Shown here: in pieces, positions 36,203 through 52,162 of the stretch
Layout: each line of letters opens with the position of its first letter
Numbering within the stretch: position 1 is the first letter of the stretch
NCBI GenBank assembly: GCA_048939015.1
Contig: JBHLPW010000003.1
Coordinates: 32,001 to 96,000, forward strand
Reading direction: 5' to 3'
DNA from: Promethearchaeota archaeon
GTDB taxonomy: Archaea; Asgardarchaeota; Lokiarchaeia; Sigyniarchaeales; SOKP01
DNA length: 64,000 nt
Notes under the pieces: model-generated
What the model saw: only the letters and a program-made list of their open reading frames with translations
Told to the model about the DNA's origin: nothing
Database searches by the model: none
Position numbers and translations under genes: made by a program

Positions 36203-37243
36203 GTGTGTAGTCTATTTTATATCTCCCGTGGTCGTAAAAGGGATATAATACATGATAAAATGCTAATGTATGGATTTGCCAGTTTTTGGTTTAGTATCGC
36301 ATTAGCAAGAATTTATTTTTTTTTTGCTGATTACTTTTTAGAAGGAACATATAGCGGCGATTTAAGCCAAATTTATCTCACTTTCAACACCATAAATTAC
36401 GTATTGATGTACTTTTATCTTTATTTATACATATTTATACTTGTGAGTGTGGTCTCCTTAAGTATAATTTTCATTTGGTTTTCGATAAGATCAAGTAAGG
36501 AATTCAAAGCGATTTCCTCAATAATGACAATAGGTTATGCAGTATTTTTAGTAGGATGGGTGTTTGAGACTATGGTAATCAAATATGAAAGTTATGTGGC
36601 ACCTTCAATTCCACCTATACTTATGATTATTGGGGCACTTGTAGCAATGTCACCATTGATAATTGATCTTCAATTTTTTGCGAAATCTTTTGTTAACTGG
36701 ATAATAATAGTTTCAATTGCTTTCATATTCCTTGCTTTATGTTTAACCTTATTCACACAATTACCAACACTGATAATAATTCAAATTATTATAATATTTG
36801 CTTCTTTTGTTCTGGTGTTTGCGCTTCTTTATATCTCGATTAATGTCTATAAAGTTTATAAATCTCCAAAGTCTTTAATGGAAGATCAAGAAAAAGAACT
36901 TAGAGATTTTATACGAGCCTTTTCAAAACCTCAAAGGATTACAGAAGAAGAAGTGCAAATGTATAAACAAAAGATGATTTGTCTTGTATGTAAAAGTCAT
37001 ATTTCACGTGTTAACTACGTTTGCCCTGAGTGTAATGCACTTTATTGTATCAAGTGTTCAAATGCGCTGAGTAATTTAGAAAATGCATGTTGGGTGTGTG
37101 ATACACCATTTGATGAGTCTCGACCAATACAACCTCATGAGGTGGTTGAAGAAGCTTTAGGTTTTGAAGAACAGATTATCGCAGAAAGTGAAGTAGGAGA
37201 ACCACATAAAGCTTTAAAAAAGGCAAAAAAAATCAAAAAATAA
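36203..37243 (+). CDS. polytopic membrane protein with C-terminal C4C4 RING-like zinc finger (candidate E3)
   Basis: ~6-7 TM helices, then C-x2-C-x10-C-x2-C-x4-C-x2-C-x10-C-x2-C at 36980-37099; frame is open upstream to 36128, so start uncertain. Confidence 0.75.
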   Translation: MCSLFYISRGRKRDIIHDKMLMYGFASFWFSIALARIYFFFADYFLEGTYSGDLSQIYLTFNTINYVLMYFYLYLYIFILVSVVSLSIIFIWFSIRSSKEFKAISSIMTIGYAVFLVGWVFETMVIKYESYVAPSIPPILMIIGALVAMSPLIIDLQFFAKSFVNWIIIVSIAFIFLALCLTLFTQLPTLIIIQIIIIFASFVLVFALLYISINVYKVYKSPKSLMEDQEKELRDFIRAFSKPQRITEEEVQMYKQKMICLVCKSHISRVNYVCPECNALYCIKCSNALSNLENACWVCDTPFDESRPIQPHEVVEEALGFEEQIIAESEVGEPHKALKKAKKIKK

Positions 37244-37254
37244 AAAAGAAATAT

Positions 37255-37530
37255 GTGAGAAGAAACAAGATGATATTAATGATTTTTTCTGTATTAAGCG
37301 ATTTATATTTTTTGGTTGGGCTATTACTTGTTATTTTTTTGGTAATACCTTATTCTATCTTAATATTTCTAACAATCTGGGTATATAGAGATGCTAAAAG
37401 AAAAGAAATTAATGCTGCCGCATGGGTTTTAATAGTATGGATAATTCCTTTTTTCATTGGGTTCATCCTATATTTATCTATTAGAAATAAATCGATTTCA
37501 AGTACTGTGAGTAGAGAGATACCTGAATAA
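37255..37530 (+). CDS. small membrane protein, PLDc N-terminal-like
   Basis: IWVYRDAKRK....AWVLIVWIIPFFIGFILYL pattern; start may be ATG at 37270. Confidence 0.75.
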   Translation: MRRNKMILMIFSVLSDLYFLVGLLLVIFLVIPYSILIFLTIWVYRDAKRKEINAAAWVLIVWIIPFFIGFILYLSIRNKSISSTVSREIPE

Positions 37531-37622
37531 ATTATGTGAAAAATTAAATTATAAAAAATAAATATTAAAAACAACAAAAACAATATTTACAATATATAAT
37601 AAATTGAAAGGTGCGAAAAAAA

Positions 37623-37880
37623 ATGCGAATCAGTGTGGAAGATAGTCGTACTGGAAAGCTAATTAAATTAGATGTTAAAAATCACCATCAGATTGAAAGA
37701 ATAGTTGATATTATCATAAAGCATATGGGTATTATAAGCGCAGAACAACGTTCGTATACACTTGTCCTCAAAGATCAAGAGTTACCAAATACAATAACTA
37801 TTGAGGATGCCATTCACAAATTCGGATTACAAGAAAATGATAAGTTAATTCTATGGGCTAAAGTTATTGGTGGATTTTAA
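37623..37880 (+). CDS. ubiquitin-like protein (beta-grasp) precursor ending GG-F
   Basis: MRISVEDSRTGKLIKLDV...LVLKDQEL...TIED...GLQENDKLILWAKVIGGF follows the ubiquitin pattern; adjacent to E2/E1/JAB; track start GTG 37611. Confidence 0.85.
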   Translation: MRISVEDSRTGKLIKLDVKNHHQIERIVDIIIKHMGIISAEQRSYTLVLKDQELPNTITIEDAIHKFGLQENDKLILWAKVIGGF

Positions 37881-37906: not shown

Positions 37907-38467
37907 CTAATCATCTATAATTAAAACATCCTCCTCTTCTTCCTCTTTTTCCTCAATCTGTTCTTCAGCAATATTGAGTCCTTCTTTAATCTCACTCATT
38001 GTCTTATTTCTAAATAATTCTGCAGCTTCTAAACATATTGGATAATTAAGAGGATCATCAGGATTTGGATTTTCTACTAAATTTTTAAGTGCTTTAGCTG
38101 TAGTTTCTAAATCAGATAACCGCGACCACTTTTTCAAAACATTAAGACAAATGTATCCTGTACCAGGATTTCCTTGGGGAATTTGAACAGGATGAATGTT
38201 AGGATGAAATATATGCGTTATCCAGGAGAAATCAATTCCGCCGGGATATGGAAATGATCTATTAATTTTCAAGAAAATGCGATGTGATCTTTGTGGTATA
38301 AGTTCTCCTTTATTTTTAATAAGTCCTAAAGCATTTATATTTATTGTGAACTCAACACTAGATTCCCCTTTAAGAACGGTATTTTCTTCCAATACCTTTA
38401 ATTTTTTTATATTTGTGAGTTCATTTTCAATTCTGTCCTTCCAAATTTCATAAGGTAATTCTGGCAA
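37907..38467 (-). CDS. ubiquitin-conjugating enzyme E2
   Basis: RIENEL, FPYP, IFHPNI...GYICLNVL..W, NPNPDDPLN..AA; TTG start preceded by GAGGGG. Confidence 0.93.
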   Translation of the reverse strand: MPELPYEIWKDRIENELTNIKKLKVLEENTVLKGESSVEFTININALGLIKNKGELIPQRSHRIFLKINRSFPYPGGIDFSWITHIFHPNIHPVQIPQGNPGTGYICLNVLKKWSRLSDLETTAKALKNLVENPNPDDPLNYPICLEAAELFRNKTMSEIKEGLNIAEEQIEEKEEEEEDVLIIDD

Positions 38468-39481: not shown

Positions 39482-39985
39482 TTAATTCGAATTAAAGTCC
39501 ACAACTGCATAACTTACTTCTTTATAACCCTTTTCTGAATTTTTATCAAGAGTATAAAATTGGGAATCATCGTCAACTGGATCGACAACTAATGCTACTT
39601 GATATGATTCTGGAAAAAAATATTTCTGAGTTTTTACGTCTGTTTTAGACAAAAAACAACCGAATCCTGGATGTGAGTGCCACCAGCCTACTATTCTTAA
39701 ACTCTCATCCTTTCTTCTTCTTTTTAATCTTTGAAATTTCTTATCATACTTTCCCGCAGCACCCTCTATTTGAGCTGTAGAATATTTATCACTATAAATG
39801 GCACCTAAAAGAAAAAGAAGTTCTTCTATTTTAACATAAAGTTTCTCGTCCCATTTCAATATATTTCCTATTAAATATCCAAAAATTTCATTATGAAAGT
39901 TTTTACATAATATCTTTATCCTATTTAAGACATCTTTTTTAATATATACTGGAAATACAAAATTTTCTTCAAATGTCATTATCAT
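39482..39985 (-). CDS. JAB/MPN+ (JAMM) metalloprotease, Rpn11-like
   Basis: [26 protein letters not shown] (HxH-x7-S-x2-D), ALVVDP. Confidence 0.93.
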
Positions 39986-40902
39986 TAATTTTTCTTAATT
40001 TCTTTTATTGAGCGTATAGAAAAATTCTCACTCTTTTTTAAAATTGAGATTTCTAACATATTTTTTATTATTTGATTAATTTGGTCTCGCGAATTTCCTT
40101 GAATCGCAGAAAACCCAAATGTTTTTAACCCAAAAGACTCATTAATTTTGCTAGGTTCAAATGCAGAGTTAATAGAGTCTTGGAAATTTGCGAGTATATA
40201 AAAATCGATATTTTTAACTCTCTCTTTTAATCTTGAGTATAAATTACTAGTTCGGCTTAAATTACCAGCACCAGAGTTGGTAACTATACAAATTATATTA
40301 ATCTTGGCAATTAAGGGTTTATAATTACTGAAGTTTTCTACTAAATCTACTAAATTTATTTCTCTTATAACAAACTCATTAATTCCTTCTAAGTTAGAAA
40401 TCTTCACTGTTTTTTCTACGATCTCATTCATCTCATCATCAATTTCTAATACAGTTTCTCCAGGAAATAGATTCATAATTGTTGATTTTCCTACACCGTC
40501 CTCACCTGCTAATAAAATCTTGGGTGGGATTATAATATTATTTTCTATAAAATTACCAAAATCTTTAATCTGAGGGCTCTGATCATTTCCTGTTCCCAAT
40601 CCATTCTTAAATCGTTTGAAAAATTCTTCCTTCACCAACTCTAACTTATACATTACTTCATCTTCCGGATCATAATGATCAGTCGTAACTATGAATACAT
40701 AATCTTGTCGACCATAGGTATATACAAAATTAAAATTCTCAAAATTTAATGATCTTATATATCCTCCTTCAATCTTTTTACAAACACGTGTAATAAGAGT
40801 AAGAAAGCTTACGATATCATTATTTATATGATCAGCACCATAAAATGATTTAAAATAGCGGACTACTCCATCCAATGTAATAATATAGATATTCGATATC
40901 AT
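39985..40902 (-). CDS. longin-like domain + atypical small GTPase, copy 1
   Basis: N-terminal longin-like fold; [15 protein letters not shown]-loop; ANFQD (G4), FSAI (G5); stop overlaps JAB start (TAATG). Confidence 0.8.
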
Positions 40903-41030
40903 ACCAGAATTTTAATTTTCTCTTTTTCTTACTTTTGACTTTAACTTTTCTTATTTTTTTAATAAATATATGTAATATAATTACATGAACAATGAAATTG
41001 TATTCTTCTTACTTTTTGATAATTAAATCT

Positions 41031-41927
41031 TTAAATTTGCTTACTTTCTATTTTTTCTATTATTGAAATTTTTATCATTTCACTAATTATTTCAAGTATC
41101 TTTTCTTCAGCTTCCTTTTTAATTGCACAAAAACCATACGTTTGCATACCAAATAATTCTTCTACTTTTTCTGGTTCATATGATGTATTTTCTAGATCTT
41201 GAAAATTAGCTATCACATAATAATCCGCTTTTTTGACTATTTTTTCTAATTGAGAGTAAAATCTTTGAGTTCTACCTAAATTACTTGCACCAGAATTAGT
41301 AACAATGCAAATTATATCGACTGAATCCAATATTGGTCTATAAATTTTAGAATTTTTAATCAATTCCTCCAAATCAAATTCCCGTAATACTATCTCCTTT
41401 ATTCTTTTAAAATTAGATAAGGGGATAGATTTTTGAATAATTTCATTCAAGTCTCCATCAAGTTCTAACACAGTTTCTCCAGGTAATAAATCCATGATGG
41501 TTGTTTTTCCTACCCCCAGTTCGCCTACAAGCAATATTTTGGGCGGGATAAAGATGTGGTTTTCTGCGAATTCATCAAATACTTCGAATCTTCCTGTTTC
41601 ACATTTCCAATTTATTAAATCATCGTGAAATTGTCTAATAAATTCATTTTTCATTAACTCTAGTTTATCTTGCGCTTCCTCTTCAGGATCATCAATCTCT
41701 GTAACAATAATAAACATACATAACTTTTCATCGTCATATGTATATACAAAATTAAAATTTCTGAAATTCAACGATTTTATTTCGCCCCCGCCAATTTCCT
41801 TTGCAATACTACTAATTGCTGTAAGGAATCCGCTTACTAAATCATAATCCATGTCATCGCTTCCCACAAATGTCTTTGAATAACAAAGAACACCATTAGC
41901 CATTATTATGAGTATTTTAGATATCAT
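41031..41927 (-). CDS. longin-like domain + atypical small GTPase, copy 2
   Basis: NGVLCYSK...LVSGFLTAI longin-like; GELGVGKTT; ANFQD; FCAI. Confidence 0.8.
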   Translation of the reverse strand: MISKILIIMANGVLCYSKTFVGSDDMDYDLVSGFLTAISSIAKEIGGGEIKSLNFRNFNFVYTYDDEKLCMFIIVTEIDDPEEEAQDKLELMKNEFIRQFHDDLINWKCETGRFEVFDEFAENHIFIPPKILLVGELGVGKTTIMDLLPGETVLELDGDLNEIIQKSIPLSNFKRIKEIVLREFDLEELIKNSKIYRPILDSVDIICIVTNSGASNLGRTQRFYSQLEKIVKKADYYVIANFQDLENTSYEPEKVEELFGMQTYGFCAIKKEAEEKILEIISEMIKISIIEKIESKQI

Positions 41928-42051
41928 TTTGAATTTCTTATTTTATTCTATTAATAATTAATTTAATAATAGAGTTGAGTATTATTTAAAATAACTGTGC
42001 GGAATTATCATTGTCATTATGAATATCCCTTTTAAAAATCTGTGAAATGAT

Positions 42052-42207
42052 ATGGGTGAAGAAGAAAAGGATTCAAAATCAAATGATCATTATCCAACAA
42101 TAATATCTTACGAAGATCGAGAAATTAAAGAACAAAAACCTCCAAATGATAAAATTATTAGTTATAAAATCGTAGATGAGAAAATAAATTCAGATTCTGA
42201 AGATTAA
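42052..42207 (+). CDS. putative small acidic protein (51 aa), not in ORF track
   Basis: MGEEEKDSKSNDHYPTIISYEDREIKEQKPPNDKIISYKIVDEKINSDSED*; purine-rich codon usage; fills an otherwise empty 310 bp gap. Confidence 0.45.
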   Translation: MGEEEKDSKSNDHYPTIISYEDREIKEQKPPNDKIISYKIVDEKINSDSED

Positions 42208-42236
42208 TTATCAAATCTCATAAGATCTATAGAGAT

Positions 42237-43184
42237 CTAGTCTACGTAAATAATAATATCATCATCTTCTTCCTTTTTAGATTCATCAATAGCTTTTTTG
42301 TTATTATGTTGTTTTTTTAGGATCGTTCTATTTACCATTTCTTCTATAATCTTATAAATTTCATTCCTTGCTTTTTTTGATATTGCTGAAAGCCCATACG
42401 TTTTTACTCTAAAAAATTCTTCCACTTTTTCAGGAACAAGTGCTGTATTAAAATCCTGGAAGTTAGCAATAATATAAAAATCTGCTTTTTTTATCTTTTG
42501 TTCTAACAATGAAAACATCCTATGTGTATTACGTAGATTCATTCCTCCTGAATTTGTTACAAAACAAATAATATCAACAGAATCTAAAAGTTGCCTATAA
42601 TTATTTTGATTATCAACTAGATCTTGTAAGTCCATCTCTCTTATTACAATCTCCTGGATTTCCTCTAGATTTGGTAGTTTAATTGACTTCTCTACGATGT
42701 CATTGGTATCTTCATCAATTTTTATTACCGTTTCTCCAGGAAATAAATTGAAGATGGTCGATTTCCCAGTACCCGGAACACCAACTAATAAAATCTTAGG
42801 AGGTATAAAAATGTGAGTATTAATATATTCATCAAAACTTTCAAACTTTCCAACATCACAATCCCAATTTTTAATTTCCTGTCGATATCTCTTGAAAAAT
42901 TCAAATTTAAGCGATTCTAATTTATATCTTACTTCCTCTTCAGGATCATCAATATTGGTTACTATAATAAAAATCCAATTCTTCTCATAATCAAAGGTGA
43001 ATACAATATTAAAATTTCTAAAATTTAATGATCGTACCTCTCCCCCACCGATCTCGCTCGCTATATTGCTAATTGCTGTGAAAAAGCCACTTATAAAATC
43101 TTCATCAATAGACTCTTCGCTAAAAAATGATTTTGAATAGCATAGAACTCCACTCGCTTTTATTATGAATATTTTTTTTATCAT
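42237..43184 (-). CDS. longin-like domain + atypical small GTPase, copy 3
   Basis: Start MIKKIFII (43184) aligns with paralogs; GVPGTGKST; ANFQD; LSAI; acidic tail EEDDDIIIYVD. Confidence 0.8.
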   Translation of the reverse strand: MIKKIFIIKASGVLCYSKSFFSEESIDEDFISGFFTAISNIASEIGGGEVRSLNFRNFNIVFTFDYEKNWIFIIVTNIDDPEEEVRYKLESLKFEFFKRYRQEIKNWDCDVGKFESFDEYINTHIFIPPKILLVGVPGTGKSTIFNLFPGETVIKIDEDTNDIVEKSIKLPNLEEIQEIVIREMDLQDLVDNQNNYRQLLDSVDIICFVTNSGGMNLRNTHRMFSLLEQKIKKADFYIIANFQDFNTALVPEKVEEFFRVKTYGLSAISKKARNEIYKIIEEMVNRTILKKQHNNKKAIDESKKEEDDDIIIYVD

Positions 43185-43227: not shown

Positions 43228-45111
43228 TTAATATGATTCCTCTATCATCTCAAGGAATATATCAGCTATATTAAGCCATTTATTTTTATGTTCAGGCTCT
43301 AATGTTTCTTTTTTTGTCAATTCTTTCCCTTTTTTGAGATATTTAATAGATTGATCCTTGTTTCCTAAATGTTTATAGCAAATTCCTAATTTTATATAAG
43401 TTTGATTAATATACCATTCTTCAGGACTTAATTCAACTACTTTTTGAAATTGCACTAGTGCTTCATGGTAGTTTTGGTTATACATTAGAATCTCCCCATA
43501 TGTATCTAGATAAGTAGGATTATTTGGAGAGTTCAAAATAAGATTCTCAATGATTTCTAACGATTCATCTTTTTGATCCATATACTGCAACCAGTAAGCT
43601 TTGTACATAAGTAAATCTTTATCATCTGGGTAATCTTGAAGTAATCCTTCTATAATTTCAAATCCCGCTTTAAGTTTGTTTATTCGTTTTAGAATTGATG
43701 CTTTCTTAATTTTGATTTCTCTCCTATTCTCTGGAAATTTGTCAACCATTTCATCTAAATCCCTTGAAGCTTCATTATAACGACCTAAATAAATCAAAAT
43801 TTTAATTTTAGAATAATAATTCTCCATATTCTGTGAATTTTTACTAATTTTCTCATTTATGTTTAAAAGTTCTTGTTCATATTGATTTTCAGATTCTTGA
43901 AATAACTCAGCCATATTTTGCCAAATAATTCCCTCTAATTTATCCCCAATCCCTCTTAATTCAGGCTCTGTTTCAATTTTATATGCTAAATAATTAATAT
44001 AATCAGGTAAAAAATTATACAGGGATTCTTCTAATCCTTTAATAAATAATTTATCTAAGCATTCTTCTAGAATTTTATCAATAATTAACTGTTTATTTAT
44101 TGATTTTGAAAAGAGTCTATTAAAGTAAGTCAACATAGTAACATGTTCTTCTGTTATCGCTCTAAGCATCATTTCAATTTTTTCATTTTCTTGAAAATAA
44201 TAAATCTGGTCTGATGAAACTTTTAATTGAAAAAATTTAATCGGATATAATCCATTTTCTACAATTTGATCAATGTAATAAGTAAGGGTATTCTCTTTAA
44301 TGCCATATTTCTTTGAAAATGTCTCAGGTGATTCATAGTTAGGAAATTCATTAGGGTGATTTACTGAAAGAAATAGTATAATTTTGTTAAAATCATCCTC
44401 ATTTTTTAGCAATGATTCCACTCTGGTATAATCTAATTTTACAATATTGTTTAGAAGCCTAAATTGTAAGAATTCATCCTCAATCTTATTTTTTTTAAAA
44501 AAATCAATAGTCTTGTTAGTGATTTCCTCAACTCGCTTACTTTCTCTTTCTAAAATTGATTGTCTGTCTAAATTGTAATTTTGTAGCATATAGGCATACT
44601 CGACTTTCCCTTTTCTTGTGATTTTATATTCCTTGCTCTCATCATCCTTTTCTACTAAACCTTCTCTTTTTAATTGTTTTAAGTATTTTGATAGTGAGGT
44701 TTGATTGATTGCAACAGGCTCTTCGAGAAAATCAGACCACTTACAGTAGCTATTGTTATAGAGCATCCATAATATCCAATGATCATAATTCCTACCTTTC
44801 TTTAGGATAATATTTGGCGGAAAGTTTACTTTTCTTATTTCTACTGCATTTTGAGACAATTTATTGAATCGAATTATCCCATCTGGGGTAATTTTATAAT
44901 GCCCTATATCAGATTTAACTATTAAACCTTGATTTCTTAGAACTCTTAAATATCTTGACAATGTAGAAGTTGGAATTTTAAGGTTAACAAAATCAGACCA
45001 CTCACTATCATCATTATTACTCAACATCCAGAGAATAATATGCTCATAATTTTTCTTATCCATTGCTGGAGGGTTGAGAATCTCTTGAGGAGGGTAAATT
45101 TTCACTGGCAT
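43228..45111 (-). CDS. double winged-HTH + TPR putative transcriptional regulator, copy 1
   Basis: Two MarR/ArsR-like wHTH repeats (TSTLSRYL...GLI...YKITPDG; QTSLSKYL...GLV...YKITRKG) and C-terminal TPRs (YLDTYGEIL). Confidence 0.8.
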   Translation of the reverse strand: MPVKIYPPQEILNPPAMDKKNYEHIILWMLSNNDDSEWSDFVNLKIPTSTLSRYLRVLRNQGLIVKSDIGHYKITPDGIIRFNKLSQNAVEIRKVNFPPNIILKKGRNYDHWILWMLYNNSYCKWSDFLEEPVAINQTSLSKYLKQLKREGLVEKDDESKEYKITRKGKVEYAYMLQNYNLDRQSILERESKRVEEITNKTIDFFKKNKIEDEFLQFRLLNNIVKLDYTRVESLLKNEDDFNKIILFLSVNHPNEFPNYESPETFSKKYGIKENTLTYYIDQIVENGLYPIKFFQLKVSSDQIYYFQENEKIEMMLRAITEEHVTMLTYFNRLFSKSINKQLIIDKILEECLDKLFIKGLEESLYNFLPDYINYLAYKIETEPELRGIGDKLEGIIWQNMAELFQESENQYEQELLNINEKISKNSQNMENYYSKIKILIYLGRYNEASRDLDEMVDKFPENRREIKIKKASILKRINKLKAGFEIIEGLLQDYPDDKDLLMYKAYWLQYMDQKDESLEIIENLILNSPNNPTYLDTYGEILMYNQNYHEALVQFQKVVELSPEEWYINQTYIKLGICYKHLGNKDQSIKYLKKGKELTKKETLEPEHKNKWLNIADIFLEMIEESY

Positions 45112-45424: not shown

Positions 45425-46762
45425 ATGAATAATAAAAAAACCTTTTTTATGGCATTAATATTGATCTTGTGTTTTAGCTTCCTGACACAAGGATTAACTG
45501 TCTCTAATGAAAAAAATGATATAAACAATAAGAGTACTTTACGTCTTTCGTCTACAAGCAATTCCGTTAAGTTTTCGTGGTATTGTATATGGGATCTTGC
45601 TCAGGAGGGAGGTGAGGGAGTGGCAGTAGATTCGTCAGGGAATATATATCTTGTAGGATGGACATATAACGCCACATTAACTGATATGGTTCTGGTGAAA
45701 TATGACAGTTCTGGGGTACAGCAATGGAATCGCACATGGGGTGGAAGTATTTCTGATGGAGGTGAAGATGTAGCAGTAGATTCTTCTGACAACGTGTATC
45801 TTGCCGGAAAAACAAGTAGTTTCGGAGAAGGAGATTATGACATGGTTCTGGTGAAATACGACAGTTCTGGTGTGCAGCAATGGAATCGCACATGGGGTGG
45901 AAGTATTAGGGATGATGGCTATGGAGTGGCATTTGATTCGTCTGATAACGTGTATCTTGTGGGAAGTACATTTAGTTACGGGGAGGGATATGATGATATA
46001 GTTTTGGTGAAATACAACAGTTCTGGTGTGCAGCAATGGAATCGCACATGGGGCGGAAGTGGTTCTGATGGAGGCAGGGGAGTGGCAGTAGATTCGTCTG
46101 ACAACGTTTATCTTTCGGGAGAAACAAAAAATTTCGGGGAGGGAAATTATGATATGGTTCTGGTGAAGTACGACAGTTCTGGAGTGCAGCAATGGAATCG
46201 CACATGGGGCGGAAGTAGTTCTGATGAAGGCACGGGAGTGGCAGTAGATTCGTCTGACAACTTATATCTTTCTGGATCGACAGAAAGTTTCGGGGAGGGA
46301 AATTATGATATAGTTCTGGTGAAATACGATGGTACTGGAGTGCAGCAATGGAATCGCACATGGGGCGGGATTATTAGGGATGAGTCCTATGGAGTGGCAG
46401 TAGATTCAGCTAACAGAATATATCTTGCGGGACGTACAAATAGTTTCGGGGAGGGATCTGATGATATAGTCTTGGTGAAATACGACAGTTCTGGTATGCA
46501 GCAAGGGGATCAAACATGGGGCGGGGTTAGTGGTGATGGAGGTACGGGAGTGGCAATAGATTCGTCTAACAACGTGTATCTTTCTGGATATACAGAAAGT
46601 TACGGAGGACCAGGTTCATCTATGGCTTTAGTGAAATATGTACAAGAACAAGGAATTTCTAGTTATAACTTATTTCTGTTTATTATTATAATTGGTGCGA
46701 TAACAGTGATAACAGCAATATCCCTTAAAAAAAAATATTATAAGAAATTTCTTCTTGAATAG
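45425..46762 (+). CDS. SBBP-repeat beta-propeller surface protein with signal peptide and C-terminal TM anchor
   Basis: ~7 repeats of GVAVDSSDNVYL.G.T.SFG.G..D.VLVKYDSSG.QQWNRTWGG; C-terminal ISSYN-TM-KKK tail. Confidence 0.88.
   Translation: MNNKKTFFMALILILCFSFLTQGLTVSNEKNDINNKSTLRLSSTSNSVKFSWYCIWDLAQEGGEGVAVDSSGNIYLVGWTYNATLTDMVLVKYDSSGVQQWNRTWGGSISDGGEDVAVDSSDNVYLAGKTSSFGEGDYDMVLVKYDSSGVQQWNRTWGGSIRDDGYGVAFDSSDNVYLVGSTFSYGEGYDDIVLVKYNSSGVQQWNRTWGGSGSDGGRGVAVDSSDNVYLSGETKNFGEGNYDMVLVKYDSSGVQQWNRTWGGSSSDEGTGVAVDSSDNLYLSGSTESFGEGNYDIVLVKYDGTGVQQWNRTWGGIIRDESYGVAVDSANRIYLAGRTNSFGEGSDDIVLVKYDSSGMQQGDQTWGGVSGDGGTGVAIDSSNNVYLSGYTESYGGPGSSMALVKYVQEQGISSYNLFLFIIIIGAITVITAISLKKKYYKKFLLE
45610..46640 (+). 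repeat. intragenic 156-bp tandem repeat (52-aa propeller blades)
   Basis: GCAATGGAATCGCACATGGGG recurs at 156-bp spacing (e.g. 45721, 45877). Confidence 0.85.
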
Positions 46763-50251: not shown

Positions 50252-52162
50252 TTAAGGAGATAATAGAATCTTTTGTTCCTCTATCTCAGCAAGAAAAAGG
50301 TCTACAATTGCTAACCACTTGTTTTTTGATTCAATATCGCTAGTAATTTTGTTTGTTAATTCTTTTCCTTTCCTGAGATTTTCAAGCGCTAAATCAATAT
50401 TATCAAGTGCAGAATAGCAAATTCCAATTTTGATATAGGTCTGGTAGATAAACCACTTATTTGGATCAATTTCTATGGTTTTTTTAAACTCTTTTATGGC
50501 TTTTTCATATTCTTTAAAGGTTATTAAGATTTCTCCATAGGTATCATGATAAATTCCTTTTTTTGGTTCGCTTTCGGTGAGGCTCCGAAGGATTTTCAAT
50601 GCTTCTTGTCTCTTACCTAAATATGATAACCAATAAGCTTTATAATTATAAAGAGAATTATCATCAGGAAATTTTTCGAGTAATTCTTCAATAATTTCTA
50701 ATCCCGCCTCCAAATTTTTATCTTTTTTAAGAGTATATGCCTTTTTTATCTTAATATCAATCTCCTTTTCTGGAAATAATGCTCTCATATTCTCTAACAC
50801 TGTTAGAACCTCGTTGTATTGATTAAAATAGATTAGAATTCTAATCTTTGAATTATATAATTCATAATTATTAGGGTTTCTACTGATTTCTTTATCAATT
50901 TCTTTAATTTTTTCTTCGTACTGAGATTTAAAATTTTCAATATTCTGCAATTCCAAAATGTCTGTCATGTTCTGCCAAATTATGCCTTCTAACTTATCAT
51001 AAGTATCTTTTAATTCTTTTTTTATCTCCATTTTATATGCTAAATATTTGATATATCTTGGTAAAAATTCACTCAATGATTCCTTGAAATGTTTATTGAA
51101 TAAGGTTTCACAAATTTCGTCAAGAATATTCTCTATAATAAAGTCAAAACTCCCAGATCTCCCAAATTTCTCTAAATATTTGTTTGTTGCAATATGTTCT
51201 TCAGTTATAGCTCGAAGGATCTTCTCTAATTTTTCATCCGAATGAAAATAGTAATGTTTATTTGGAGAAATATCTAATTTAAAAAACTTTAAGTCATATA
51301 AGTCGCTTTCTACGATCTCATTTACCCAAAAATCAAGGATTCTCTTTTTGATTTCATAAAATCTCGAAAATTCCTCAAAAGATAAATAGTCAGGATAAAA
51401 ATCGGGATGATTTATCGATAAAAAAAGTAAGATTTTATGAAAATCCTCTTCATTTTTTAAAATTGCTTTAACTTTTGAATAATCTAATTTTAACACATTA
51501 TTCAAAAATCTAAATTTGACCTGATCATCTGAAATACTATATTTATTAAAAAACAGTGAAGTCTTTGTAGTAATTTCATCAATCCTTTTCTTTTCTTCCT
51601 CCAATATTGTTTGTCTATCCAAATCATATTGCTGTAAAATTCTCGAATATTCAGATTTGCCCGATTGAGTAATTATATATCTTTTATTTTCTTTGATGAT
51701 AAAACCCTTTTGAGTCAATAAATCTAGACTTTTTGATAAAGAGGATTGATTTATAGATAGTGGTTCTTCAAGAAAGTCAGTTCTTTTGCAATAACCATTA
51801 TTATAAACCATCCATAGAATCCAATGAGGATAATTTCTACCTCTTTTTAAGATAATATTAGGTGGATAATTCAGTTTACGTTTTATTTTTCTTTCTTTTG
51901 ATAACTCATGAAATCTTCTTCTTCCTTCTGGAGTTATCCTGTATTTTCCTCTAGAAAACTTTTCTATAAATCCGTTGAGGATTAATTTTCCTAAATGACG
52001 TGATATTGTAGATATTGGGATTTCCACTGGCTTTTGCTCAAAATTAGACCATTCACAACTTTCATTATTAGCTAATATCCAAAGGATTATCTGTTCGTAA
52101 TTCCTTCTTTGCAGTTCTGAAGGGTTAAGAACCTCCTTAGATGGATAATTAAATTTTCCCAT
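50252..52162 (-). CDS. double winged-HTH + TPR putative transcriptional regulator, copy 2
   Basis: Paralog of 43228-45111 (PPNIILK.GRNY.HWILWM.YNN, DKLEGIIWQNM, DTYGEIL). Confidence 0.8.
   Translation of the reverse strand: MGKFNYPSKEVLNPSELQRRNYEQIILWILANNESCEWSNFEQKPVEIPISTISRHLGKLILNGFIEKFSRGKYRITPEGRRRFHELSKERKIKRKLNYPPNIILKRGRNYPHWILWMVYNNGYCKRTDFLEEPLSINQSSLSKSLDLLTQKGFIIKENKRYIITQSGKSEYSRILQQYDLDRQTILEEEKKRIDEITTKTSLFFNKYSISDDQVKFRFLNNVLKLDYSKVKAILKNEEDFHKILLFLSINHPDFYPDYLSFEEFSRFYEIKKRILDFWVNEIVESDLYDLKFFKLDISPNKHYYFHSDEKLEKILRAITEEHIATNKYLEKFGRSGSFDFIIENILDEICETLFNKHFKESLSEFLPRYIKYLAYKMEIKKELKDTYDKLEGIIWQNMTDILELQNIENFKSQYEEKIKEIDKEISRNPNNYELYNSKIRILIYFNQYNEVLTVLENMRALFPEKEIDIKIKKAYTLKKDKNLEAGLEIIEELLEKFPDDNSLYNYKAYWLSYLGKRQEALKILRSLTESEPKKGIYHDTYGEILITFKEYEKAIKEFKKTIEIDPNKWFIYQTYIKIGICYSALDNIDLALENLRKGKELTNKITSDIESKNKWLAIVDLFLAEIEEQKILLSP

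What the first reader, a model, noticed from the sequence alone, without database searches (positions are those of the whole stretch)
39985..43184. Triplicated longin-GTPases with no DxxG and an NFQD G4
Seen: all three keep G1 (GxxGxGKS/T) and G5 (SA/CA), but the G3 position reads REINL/REFDL/REMDL with no DxxG, and G4 is NFQD instead of NKxD. All share LF/LPGETV and a TNSG-x2-NL loop. Conservation across three diverged paralogs argues for selection rather than decay. The longin-like domain is N-terminal, the reverse of Rag GTPases. Inference: a pseudo-GTPase or altered-switch family that may hetero-oligomerise through its longin domains.
Basis: partly seen in the sequence, partly recalled or inferred. 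Interest (0 to 1): 0.72.

Follow-up and report, generated by a model that had tools for sequence, protein, structure and literature searches.

The report
Switch-dead longin-GTPases of Asgard ubiquitin operon
Three tandem genes in an Asgard (Loki-type) archaeon encode longin + Arf-like GTPase fusions that keep their nucleotide pocket but have lost the residues needed to hydrolyse GTP or switch shape, and this protein family is almost always the first gene of the archaeon's ubiquitin-like conjugation operon, which links two hallmark "eukaryotic" systems.

Summary
Three paralogs (A 39985-40902, B 41031-41927, C 42237-43184, minus strand; 47-57% identical) are an N-terminal longin domain fused to an Arf-like G domain. 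The longin call rests on an AF2 model whose best PDB matches are Sec22b, AP sigma and VAMP7. The G-domain model gives Z 18 to Arf.

Compared with canonical Asgard longin-GTPases (GxxGVGKT / PT / WDFAGQE / NKQD), a 124-member subfamily differs as follows:
- It keeps G1, the N and D of G4, and G5.
- The G2 Thr column reads Q or E.
- The G3 Asp is kept as D or N.
- The G3 Gly is always D or E.
- The catalytic Gln column is mostly Leu (108/124).
- G4 reads NFQD in 124/124.

dN/dS of 0.08-0.23 shows purifying selection, not decay. The best reading is a nucleotide-binding, non-hydrolysing, non-switching pseudoGTPase.

The new point is context. Most sequence-distinct loci fetched for close family members (at least 12) place the gene directly upstream of JAB-E1-E2. 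A pro-Ubl, a small TM protein and a TM-RING gene converge on it, and a wHTH-TPR gene often lies beside it. Most lineages have one copy; this genome has three. Variants without the longin domain keep the same position.

Heterodimerisation received only weak in-silico support. Longin-GTPase fusions in Asgard are already published. I found neither the degenerate subfamily nor its ubiquitin linkage in the papers searched.

The parts
42237..43184 (-). Longin-GTPase paralog C (315 aa). Motifs: G1 GVPGTGKS 42759-42782, REMDLQDL 42618-42641, NFQD 42453-42464. Has a clade-specific acidic-hydrophobic C-terminal tail, EEDDDIIIYVD.
   Evidence: tree clade with 6 metagenomic orthologs
41031..41927 (-). Longin-GTPase paralog B (298 aa). 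Longin domain about aa 1-125 (41553-41927); G domain about aa 129-298 (41034-41543). Motifs: G1 41502-41525, switch-I NEIIQK 41430-41447, REFDLEEL 41361-41384, TNSGASNL 41277-41300, NFQD 41196-41207, G5 41121-41135.
   Evidence: (AF2 pLDDT 85.6, pTM 0.83)
39985..40902 (-). Longin-GTPase paralog A (305 aa). It is the fastest-evolving copy and has Asn at the G3 Asp column (REINLVDL 40342-40365). NFQD is at 40177-40188. Its stop codon overlaps the JAB start by 1 nt (TAATG).
39482..39985 (-). JAB/MPN metalloprotease. Likely the pro-Ubl processing enzyme / deconjugase.
   Evidence: Pfam JAB 41 bits, Prok-JAB 35 bits
38581..39510 (-). E1-like ThiF-family activating enzyme.
   Evidence: Pfam ThiF 169 bits
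37907..38467 (-). E2-like UBC enzyme with a conserved acidic-hydrophobic tail, ...EEEEEDVLIIDD.
   Evidence: Pfam UQ_con 40 bits; tail present in 15/16 orthologs
37611..37880 (+). Pro-ubiquitin-like protein (89 aa) ending VIGG-F. Orthologs end VIGG plus 0-4 variable residues.
   Evidence: (weak hit to polyubiquitin, E 0.021)
37255..37530 (+). Small membrane protein, conserved in the locus.
36203..37243 (+). Multi-pass membrane protein with a C-terminal 8-Cys RING-like finger (candidate membrane E3).
   Evidence: sequence; conserved synteny; no Pfam RING hit
43228..45111 (-). wHTH x2 + TPR protein, immediately upstream of paralog C on the same strand. A homolog lies next to the longin-GTPase in several related loci.
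   Evidence: Pfam HTH_45, HTH_5, TPR

Best explanation
The three genes are lineage-specific duplicates of one Asgard (Loki-type) protein family: an N-terminal longin domain fused to an Arf-like G domain.

The G domain has become a pseudoGTPase. It keeps the phosphate-binding P-loop and the guanine-recognition residues (N..D of G4, SA of G5), so it most likely still binds a guanine nucleotide (inferred). It has lost every element that canonical small GTPases use to sense the gamma-phosphate and hydrolyse it:
- the switch-I Thr,
- the switch-II Gly (now Asp/Glu),
- the catalytic Gln (now Leu),
- a small residue at the Ras-G12 position.

It is therefore predicted to be a constitutively loaded, non-switching module, possibly locked in an Arf-GDP-like fold in which switch I forms an extra edge strand.

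The family is a dedicated component of the Loki-type ubiquitin-like conjugation system. It is encoded as the first gene of the JAB-E1-E2 operon, opposite the pro-Ubl and a membrane RING-like protein. The proposed role (inferred, not shown) is a scaffold or adaptor/regulatory subunit that couples the soluble conjugation enzymes, or their substrates, to the membrane RING E3. The longin domain would provide a dimerisation or partner platform.

In this genome the single ancestral gene has become three (C-B-A), each with orthologs elsewhere. This suggests sub-functionalisation; for example, C has acquired an E2-like acidic-hydrophobic tail.
For: Fold:
- Full-length AF2 model has pLDDT 85.6 and pTM 0.83.
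- The N-domain modelled alone matches Sec22b, AP sigma, VAMP7, Ykt6 and SRX longin domains.
- The G domain matches Arf with Z 17.5-18.2, and the best-ranked rows are GDP forms.

Motif mapping:
- Canonical relatives read GxxGVGKT, PT, WDFAGQE, NKQD.
- Family columns, n=124: G1 K 124/124; G2 column Q102/E16; G3 Asp column D86/N35; G3 Gly column D59/E58 and never G; Gln column L108; G4 F 124/124, N 124/124, D 124/124.
- Intermediates exist: P0128 and P0129 have lost the Gly but keep NKQD.

Selection: dN/dS is 0.08-0.10 for B and 0.16-0.23 for A.

Linkage:
- The gene lies directly upstream of JAB-ThiF-UQ_con in at least 12 sequence-distinct loci with 43-84% identical family members.
- Phyletic co-occurrence in 121 sampled genomes: the E1 ortholog is in 9 genomes, and 8 of those have the family. 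Among the other 112, only the distant longin-GTPase hits of 146-170 bits were seen.
- Variants lacking the longin domain (P0135, and the L023 locus) keep the same operon position.
- The stop codon of A overlaps the JAB start.
Against: - No nucleotide-binding or hydrolysis data exist. Retention of binding is inferred from conservation only.
- HAS-type GTPases show that a hydrophobic residue at the Gln position can coexist with activity. Invariant K166, D157, R182 and E183 could form a non-canonical catalytic or sensing device.
- One related genome (G113) has RING-TM, small TM, JAB and E1 with no longin-GTPase gene between them.
- Two further paralogs in this genome (contigs C88 and C125) sit outside a JAB-E1-E2 operon.
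- No physical interaction with any ubiquitin-system protein was tested.
- The register of the G3 alignment differs by two residues in the Arl5 alignment, although no register supplies a Gly.
Confidence: 0.6

Rival explanations
1. They are active GTPase switches with non-canonical machinery. Catalysis and gamma-phosphate sensing would be supplied by the family-specific invariant residues (K166 after the lost G2 Thr, D157 in the 5-residue switch-I insert, R182-E183 before the G3 Asp, and the acidic residue at the Gly column), or in trans by the longin domain or a partner, as MglB does for MglA.
For: G1, G4 (N and D) and G5 are strictly conserved, and new invariant charged residues cluster around the switch regions. 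Hydrophobic substitution of the catalytic Gln is tolerated in HAS-GTPases (established knowledge). P0217 and P0218 combine NFQD with an intact DxPGQ, so F in G4 is compatible with an otherwise canonical G domain.
Against: The G2 Thr, the G3 Gly and the Gln are all lost, and residues at the Ras-G12 position are bulky. To my knowledge no characterised switch GTPase lacks both the Thr and the Gly that make the 'loaded spring'.
Confidence: 0.2
2. The whole locus (Ubl-E1-E2-JAB + RING-TM + degenerate GTPase + wHTH-TPR) is an accessory conflict/defence system rather than a housekeeping ubiquitin pathway. It would be analogous to bacterial Ubl/E1/E2/JAB anti-phage operons, with the GTPase-like protein acting as sensor or adaptor.
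For: - Distribution is patchy within one family: the E1 ortholog is in 8 of 15 sampled f1 genomes and 6 of 9 in genus g4.
- The NFQD G domain is also found fused to TIR (P0137) and to CN_hydrolase/nitrilase (P0125, P0132, and the protein on own contig C125).
- That nitrilase part hits a PADLOC DRT nitrilase model at 43.7 bits.
Against: PADLOC gives no hit for the longin-GTPase, the E2, the Ubl or the RING-TM protein, and only generic JAB and E1 homology. Gene order and sequence are well conserved (E1 66-90% identical). No mobile-element or defence-island neighbours were seen in the loci examined.
Confidence: 0.15
3. The proteins are decaying, functionless duplicates, and their position next to the ubiquitin genes is accidental.
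For: Canonical catalytic residues are missing. Paralog A sits on a long branch.
Against: dN/dS is 0.08-0.23. There are 15 invariant columns across 51 diverse members. The adjacency is conserved in at least 12 sequence-distinct loci, and variants with swapped domains keep it.
Confidence: 0.02

Closest known systems
Asgard longin-Arf-like GTPase fusions (Klinger et al. 2016 as cited in PMC4917890; Liu et al. preprint 10.1101/2020.10.19.343400; Tran et al. 2024, PMC10933270)
   Same: Same two-domain architecture (N-terminal longin, C-terminal Arf/Rag-like G domain), same phylum, and clear sequence homology (profile E 1e-20 to 1e-47). A canonical example from an Odin-like genome scores Arf 84 bits and Fuz_longin_1 27.8 bits.
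   Different: Canonical members keep PT, WDFAGQE and NKQD. This subfamily has lost the Thr, Gly and Gln, reads NFQD, and carries a 5-residue switch-I insert and an 'RE' insert. It scores below Pfam thresholds for Arf. Among the members examined, only this subfamily is embedded in the JAB-E1-E2 operon.
Arf family small GTPases (Arf1, Arl1, Arl5; Asgard ArfR1, PDB 8oun/8ouk)
   Same: Best structural match for the G domain: Z 17.5-18.2, rmsd 2.5-3.0 over 145-153 residues. Asgard ArfR1 gives Z 16.3-16.7. Arf and Arl proteins are the best-scoring small GTPases in the PDB profile search at E about 2e-3.
   Different: No N-terminal amphipathic helix; a longin domain is there instead. There is no WDxGGQ and no G2 Thr. 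The best matches are the GDP forms, in which switch I makes an extra strand.
Rag/Gtr GTPases
   Same: A small G domain covalently joined to a roadblock/longin-superfamily domain. They work as dimers of paralogs held together by that domain.
   Different: Domain order is reversed (in Rag the G domain is N-terminal and the roadblock C-terminal; established knowledge). Here the domain is longin, not roadblock. Rag proteins keep functional G motifs. No Rag chain appears in the top 50 structural matches, which is inconclusive.
SR-alpha SRX longin domain bound to the Arf-like GTPase SR-beta (PDB 1nrj)
   Same: A longin domain paired with an Arf-like G domain. SRX is among the significant matches of the N-domain (rank 24, E 7.8e-4).
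   Different: In SR these are two polypeptides and SR-beta is a functional GTPase. Here they are fused and the G domain is degenerate. Whether the longin contacts the switch face here could not be examined.
PseudoGTPases, e.g. the AAGAB psGD that binds the longin-fold AP sigma subunit (PMC12490416; PDB 9ddt)
   Same: A G-fold domain without catalytic residues, used as a protein-interaction module and partnered with a longin-fold protein. 9ddt_B (AP-1 sigma3) is a hit of the N-domain (rank 20).
   Different: AAGAB lacks nucleotide binding altogether (class i). This family keeps G1, G4 and G5, so it is predicted to bind nucleotide. There is no sequence relationship beyond the fold.
TRIM23/ARD1, a eukaryotic RING E3 ligase with a C-terminal Arf domain
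   Same: An Arf-like domain physically coupled to ubiquitin-ligase machinery. A TRIM23 cluster appears among the ESM-Atlas shape matches (TM 0.55 by query).
   Different: TRIM23 is a single polypeptide with an active Arf domain and no longin. Here the coupling is by operon, and the RING-like protein is a separate membrane protein. The resemblance is analogy only.

Membership tests
Ras-superfamily / Arf-like small GTPase fold | Six-stranded alpha/beta G-domain fold with P-loop GxxxxGK[ST] | tested here: met
   AF2 model; VIA Z 18.2 to Arf1. G1 K and S/T are present in 124/124.
Ras-superfamily / Arf-like small GTPase (functional switch) | G2 switch-I Thr | tested here: not met
   The column aligned to the PT of canonical relatives reads Q102/E16 of 124. 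The alternative T152 is not conserved (T84, L28).
Ras-superfamily / Arf-like small GTPase (functional switch) | G3 DxxG with catalytic Gln (WDxxGQ) | tested here: not met
   The Asp column is D86/N35. The Gly column is D59/E58, with 0 Gly. The Gln column is L108. Spacing to G1 and G4 agrees with the canonical relatives.
Ras-superfamily / Arf-like small GTPase | G4 NKxD guanine-specificity motif | tested here: inconclusive
   N and D are invariant, but K is replaced by F in 124/124. The specificity-determining Asp is kept. The effect of F on binding is untested.
Ras-superfamily / Arf-like small GTPase | G5 SAx | tested here: met
   S108/C13 and A111 of 124.
Longin domain | beta2-alpha-beta3-alpha2 topology without an N-terminal helix, and structural similarity to Sec22/Ykt6/VAMP7/AP sigma | tested here: met
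   DSSP gives E2-9, E14-19, H28-42, E50-54, E58-65, E70-77, H82-106, H111-125. Foldseek top hits are Sec22b with TM 0.73-0.77; roadblock proteins rank lower. Pfam hits are only sub-threshold (Fuz_longin_1 E 0.011, Longin E 0.12).
Rag/Gtr GTPases | N-terminal G domain followed by a C-terminal roadblock dimerisation domain | tested here: not met
   The domain order is longin (N) then G domain (C).
PseudoGTPase, nucleotide-binding but catalytically inactive class | G fold lacking catalytic residues | tested here: met
PseudoGTPase, nucleotide-binding but catalytically inactive class | Demonstrated nucleotide binding without hydrolysis | not testable with these tools
   Needs mant-GTP/GDP binding and a phosphate-release assay.
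Loki-type Ubl conjugation operon component | Conserved adjacency to JAB-E1-E2 across divergent genomes | tested here: met
   At least 12 sequence-distinct loci. Co-occurs with the E1 ortholog in 8 of 9 genomes.
Loki-type Ubl conjugation operon component | Physical or functional interaction with the conjugation enzymes | not tested

The most novel reading that the evidence does not exclude
The degenerate longin-Arf-like protein is an integral, nucleotide-loaded subunit of an archaeal membrane ubiquitin-ligase machine. It could be an adaptor that brings JAB/E1/E2 or substrates to the TM-RING protein. It could also be the dedicated acceptor of the Ubl on its invariant switch-I lysine (K166), in the manner of Atg12-Atg5. 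Either way this would be a prokaryotic precedent for GTPase-fold proteins wired directly into ubiquitylation, predating eukaryotes.
Probability: 0.3. Interest if true: 0.85.

Novelty: new variant of a known kind. Interest (0 to 1): 0.62.

Why it matters
Small GTPases with longin/roadblock partners and the ubiquitin system are two of the signature "eukaryotic" toolkits found in Asgard archaea. They have been catalogued largely separately. Hatano et al. 2022 (PMC9192718) describe a discrete ubiquitin region in Lokiarchaeota without mentioning GTPases. Tran et al. 2024 (PMC10933270) note that MK-D1 GTPase genes are generally not in operons with RB, longin or TRAPPC3 genes.

A conserved operon that starts with a longin-GTPase-fold protein and continues with JAB, E1 and E2 gives a concrete, expressible set of six to eight proteins. 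With it one can test whether GTPase-fold modules already regulated or scaffolded ubiquitylation at membranes before eukaryotes arose. It also provides a natural series showing how a switch GTPase degenerates into a pseudoGTPase: canonical, then Gly lost with NKQD kept, then NFQD.

Tried and rejected
- Pfam and NCBIfam on the three proteins gave only sub-threshold hits (Arf 14-22 bits, MMR_HSR1, RsgA, Longin E 0.12). Classification therefore had to come from profiles and structure.
- phmmer against PDB with a single sequence gave only weak EngA/Arl hits.
- The paralog complex B+A gave ipSAE 0.53/0.49/0.53 against a best control of 0.00, with run agreement at least 77% and partner pLDDT at least 77. 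The tool's verdict is 'weak support', and no interface was reported. It does not distinguish hetero- from homodimers.
- Sequencing-run search: no RNA holder was listed. Only sediment-metagenome DNA runs appeared, one of which is probably the source of this DNA.
- Rfam over the whole window gave no family at gathering score.
- The 309-nt C-B spacer is AT-rich with nothing notable.
- PADLOC gave no defence-family hit for the longin-GTPase, E2, Ubl or RING-TM protein.
- Rag, SR-beta and MglA were not among the top 50 VIA rows. MglA is at Foldseek rank 39. This is inconclusive, not an exclusion.
- Residue-level inspection of how the longin domain packs on the G domain was not possible, because no coordinates or PAE are returned.
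- The TIR-fused variant P0137 lies on a short contig with no ubiquitin genes in view.
- Literature searches found the fusion architecture. They found no description of the NFQD / Gly-less subfamily or of its ubiquitin-operon linkage. The library covers open-access papers only.
Full report
**What is there.** The window has about 30% G+C. It is contig C32:32001-96000 of a 4.86-Mb, 94.9%-complete genome. Close homologs of its proteins carry Promethearchaeota/Lokiarchaeia labels.

On the minus strand lie three tandem ORFs: C 42237-43184 (315 aa), B 41031-41927 (298 aa) and A 39985-40902 (305 aa). They are 47-57% identical pairwise.

**Fold.** An AlphaFold2 model of B, built on a 51-sequence alignment, has pLDDT 85.6 and pTM 0.83.
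- Residues 1-125 have the topology beta-beta-alpha-beta-beta-beta-alpha-alpha.
- Modelled alone (pLDDT 80.8), this domain's best PDB matches are the Sec22b longin domain (TM 0.73-0.77), AP-1/AP-2 sigma, VAMP7, Ykt6, TRAPP Bet5 and SRX. Roadblock proteins rank lower.
- Residues about 128-298 are a small G domain closest to Arf-family proteins: Foldseek E about 2e-9, and VIA Z 17.5-18.2 with rmsd 2.5-3.0 over 145-153 residues.
- The top rows are almost all Arf-GDP structures. GTP-form entries and the Asgard ArfR1 structures score Z 16.3-16.7.
- The model has an extra strand (152-156) right after helix 1. This is reminiscent of the switch-I strand of Arf-GDP. That reading is an inference from a predicted model.
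- An ESM-Atlas cluster of 376 archaeal (Promethearchaeota) proteins matches the whole model at TM 0.87.

**What happened to the G motifs.** A profile search of 1.84 billion representatives found 1425 relatives, 32 of them at E<=1e-30. Most of the more distant relatives listed (E about 1e-13 to 1e-47) are longin-GTPases with fully canonical motifs at constant spacing: GxxGVGKT, a PT switch-I threonine, WDFAGQE, TDSTxxN and NKQD.

Aligning the close family (n=124) against 89 canonical relatives gives this column-by-column picture:

| Column | Close family (n=124) |
|---|---|
| G1 Lys and Ser/Thr | intact, 124/124 |
| Ras-G12 position | variable and often bulky |
| Switch I | 5-residue insert with invariant D157 |
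| G2 Thr column | Q102 / E16, followed by near-invariant K166 (123/124) |
| Before G3 | 'RE' dipeptide inserted |
| G3 Asp column | D86 / N35 |
| G3 Gly column | D59 / E58, never Gly |
| Catalytic Gln column | L108 |
| G4 | N-F-Q-D, 124/124 |
| G5 | S/C-A |

The independent HMM alignment to Arf1 gives the same register (the D of RE-x-D-L falls on the D of WDVGG). An Arl5 alignment is shifted by two residues, but neither register supplies a Gly.

The 'TNSG..NL' loop is the family's version of the canonical TDST..N motif, not a novelty.

Transitional sequences exist. P0128 and P0129 have lost the Gly but keep NKQD, and P0127 reads NWQD. The tree places them at the base of the family. P0217 and P0218 independently read NFQD with an intact DxPGQ.

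**Selection.** Ortholog pairs give dN/dS of 0.08-0.10 for B and 0.16-0.23 for A. dS is 1-2, so these are approximate. Fifteen columns are invariant across 51 diverse members. This is a maintained state, not decay.

**Copy number and history.** A, B and C fall in three separately supported clades, each with metagenomic orthologs. A sits on a long branch.

Most related contigs carry one copy. Two related loci carry a tandem pair (L016 and L036: a B-like copy followed by a second, more divergent one, A-like in L016). This genome carries three in the order C-B-A.

It also has two further paralogs elsewhere. One is on C88 among metabolic genes. The other, on C125, is an 876-aa longin-GTPase-X-CN_hydrolase fusion next to a TM zinc-finger gene.

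**Context, which is the main new point.** Downstream of A on the same strand are a JAB/MPN protease (its start overlaps A's stop, TAATG), a ThiF-type E1 and a UBC-type E2. Converging from the other strand are a multi-pass membrane protein with an 8-Cys RING-like finger, a small membrane protein, and an 89-aa pro-Ubl ending VIGG-F. A wHTH-TPR protein lies immediately upstream of C.

The same arrangement recurs: longin-GTPase directly before JAB-E1-E2, usually with the convergent Ubl and a TM-RING gene nearby, and in several loci a wHTH-TPR gene. It is found in most of the contigs fetched for close family members, at 43-84% identity. These are loci L011/12, L013, L015, L016, L018, L019, L020/41, L021, L036, L037, L038, L039 and L042. 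In L022 and L040 a long form of about 874 aa occupies the same position.

In a sample of 121 genomes of the phylum, the E1 ortholog (E<=1e-60) was found in 9 genomes, all in one family. Eight of those 9 carry the longin-GTPase family next to it. The ninth (G113) has RING-TM, small TM, JAB and E1 without it. The other 112 genomes showed at most the distant longin-GTPase hits of 146-170 bits, in 10 of them, and no close family member. One caveat applies: only 19 candidates per genome were scored.

Variants that lack the longin domain but keep the NFQD G domain still occupy the same slot (P0135 in L053, and the L023 locus), or sit between RING-TM/small-TM and Ubl/wHTH-TPR (L043-45). The G-like domain, not the longin, is therefore the constant partner of the ubiquitin genes.

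The roughly 30%-identical canonical relatives examined are not in such operons. The exception is an Odin-like genus, where the canonical protein sits at the edge of the Ub-ESCRT cluster.

**Interpretation.** The residue pattern is that of a nucleotide-binding but hydrolysis-dead and non-switching G domain:
- The P-loop, the guanine-specificity Asp and G5 are kept.
- The Thr and the Gly that sense the gamma-phosphate are gone.
- The catalytic Gln is gone.
- A bulky residue sits at the G12 position.

In the usual pseudoGTPase classification (my knowledge of the Stiegler & Boggon scheme; class-i usage is illustrated in PMC12490416) it would fall in the nucleotide-binding, inactive class. That nucleotide is still bound is an inference.

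Conserved operon membership makes a role in the Ubl pathway the most economical hypothesis. I propose a scaffold/adaptor or regulatory subunit between the soluble enzymes and the membrane RING-like protein. This step is inferred, not shown.

Two details fit a physical link:
- There is translational coupling between A and JAB.
- Paralog C has a clade-specific tail (acidic run + IIIxVD; 7/7 orthologs). It resembles the conserved tail of the E2 (acidic run + [IV][ILV]I[IV][DE][DE]; 15/16 orthologs).

**Oligomerisation.** The A+B pair scored ipSAE 0.53/0.49/0.53 against 0.00 for all three controls. The tool calls this weak support and reports no interface. It cannot separate hetero- from homodimers. 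Single-copy lineages argue that any dimer was ancestrally a homodimer.

**Rivals.**
- A non-canonical active switch that uses the new invariant charged residues (about 0.2).
- The whole locus being an accessory conflict system (about 0.15). This is suggested by the patchy distribution, by the TIR and nitrilase fusions and by analogy to bacterial Ubl/E1/E2/JAB defence operons. PADLOC, however, gives only generic JAB and E1 homology and nothing for the GTPase.
- Decay or an accidental neighbourhood, which is essentially excluded.

**Novelty.** Longin domains fused to Arf-like GTPases in Lokiarchaeum have been reported since 2016 (PMC4917890 citing Klinger et al.). They were noted again by Liu et al. 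(10.1101/2020.10.19.343400) and Tran et al. (PMC10933270). The architecture is therefore known.

I found no paper describing this Gly-less/NFQD subfamily or its position at the head of the ubiquitin operon. Hatano et al. (PMC9192718) describe a discrete Ub region in Lokiarchaeota without mentioning GTPases or longins. Other first-stage notes of this scan flagged the same locus; I verified the linkage independently here.

I rate it a new variant of a known kind, of moderate-to-high interest for Asgard and eukaryogenesis research and for pseudoenzyme biology.

Noticed in passing
window 37907-38467 (-) and 42237-42275 (-): The E2 ends in an acidic run followed by a hydrophobic tail (...EEEEEDVLIIDD); 15 of 16 orthologs keep this. 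Longin-GTPase C and all 6 of its clade orthologs end in a look-alike (...EEDDDIIIYVD). This SIM-like motif may bind the Ubl or a shared partner.
   Followed up: partly
window 37611-37880 (+): The Ubl is a pro-form (VIGG-F). Orthologs end VIGG plus 0-4 variable residues, which implies C-terminal processing, presumably by the operon's JAB protease.
   Followed up: partly
L029 1-9032 (G001:C1:1062000-1071031); also L031, L032: In an Odin-like genus, a canonical longin-Arf-like GTPase (Arf 84 bits, Fuz_longin_1 27.8 bits) lies at the end of the Ub-ESCRT cluster: E1-E2-Ub-UEV-Vps28-EAP30-Vps4-Snf7-Snf7-SSB-longinGTPase. This is seen within one genus only, so it may be shallow synteny.
   Followed up: partly
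L050 9502-12132 (G000:C125:44501-47131); P0125, P0132: A long form of 874-881 aa joins longin-GTPase, an unassigned region of about 350 aa, and a CN_hydrolase (nitrilase-superfamily) domain. It sits beside a TM zinc-finger gene. In G071 (L022) it takes the place of the short form upstream of JAB-E1-E2.
   Followed up: partly
P0137 (L052 7001-7942): An NFQD-type G domain is fused to a TIR domain (TIR_2, 57 bits). No ubiquitin genes are visible on its 12.7-kb contig.
   Followed up: partly
L051 (G113:C65:1-2617): A related genome has RING-TM, small TM, JAB and E1 in one direction with no longin-GTPase gene between them. It is the only exception to the linkage found.
   Followed up: partly
window 43228-45111 (-) and 50252-52162 (-): There are two large paralogous-looking ORFs (627 and 636 aa). 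The first is a double wHTH + TPR protein. Its homologs flank the ubiquitin locus in several other genomes, which makes it a candidate locus-specific regulator.
   Followed up: no
window 45425-46762 (+): A secreted or membrane-anchored protein with 7 SBBP beta-propeller repeats (Pfam 112 bits) lies divergent from the wHTH-TPR gene. The repeats create spurious antisense ORFs.
   Followed up: no
L011 6453-6980, L013 15590-16135, L015 5745-6269: A separate canonical small GTPase (Arf/Ras/Gtr1_RagA Pfam hits, 174-181 aa) recurs within 2-7 kb of the longin-GTPase/JAB/E1 genes in three other contigs.
   Followed up: no
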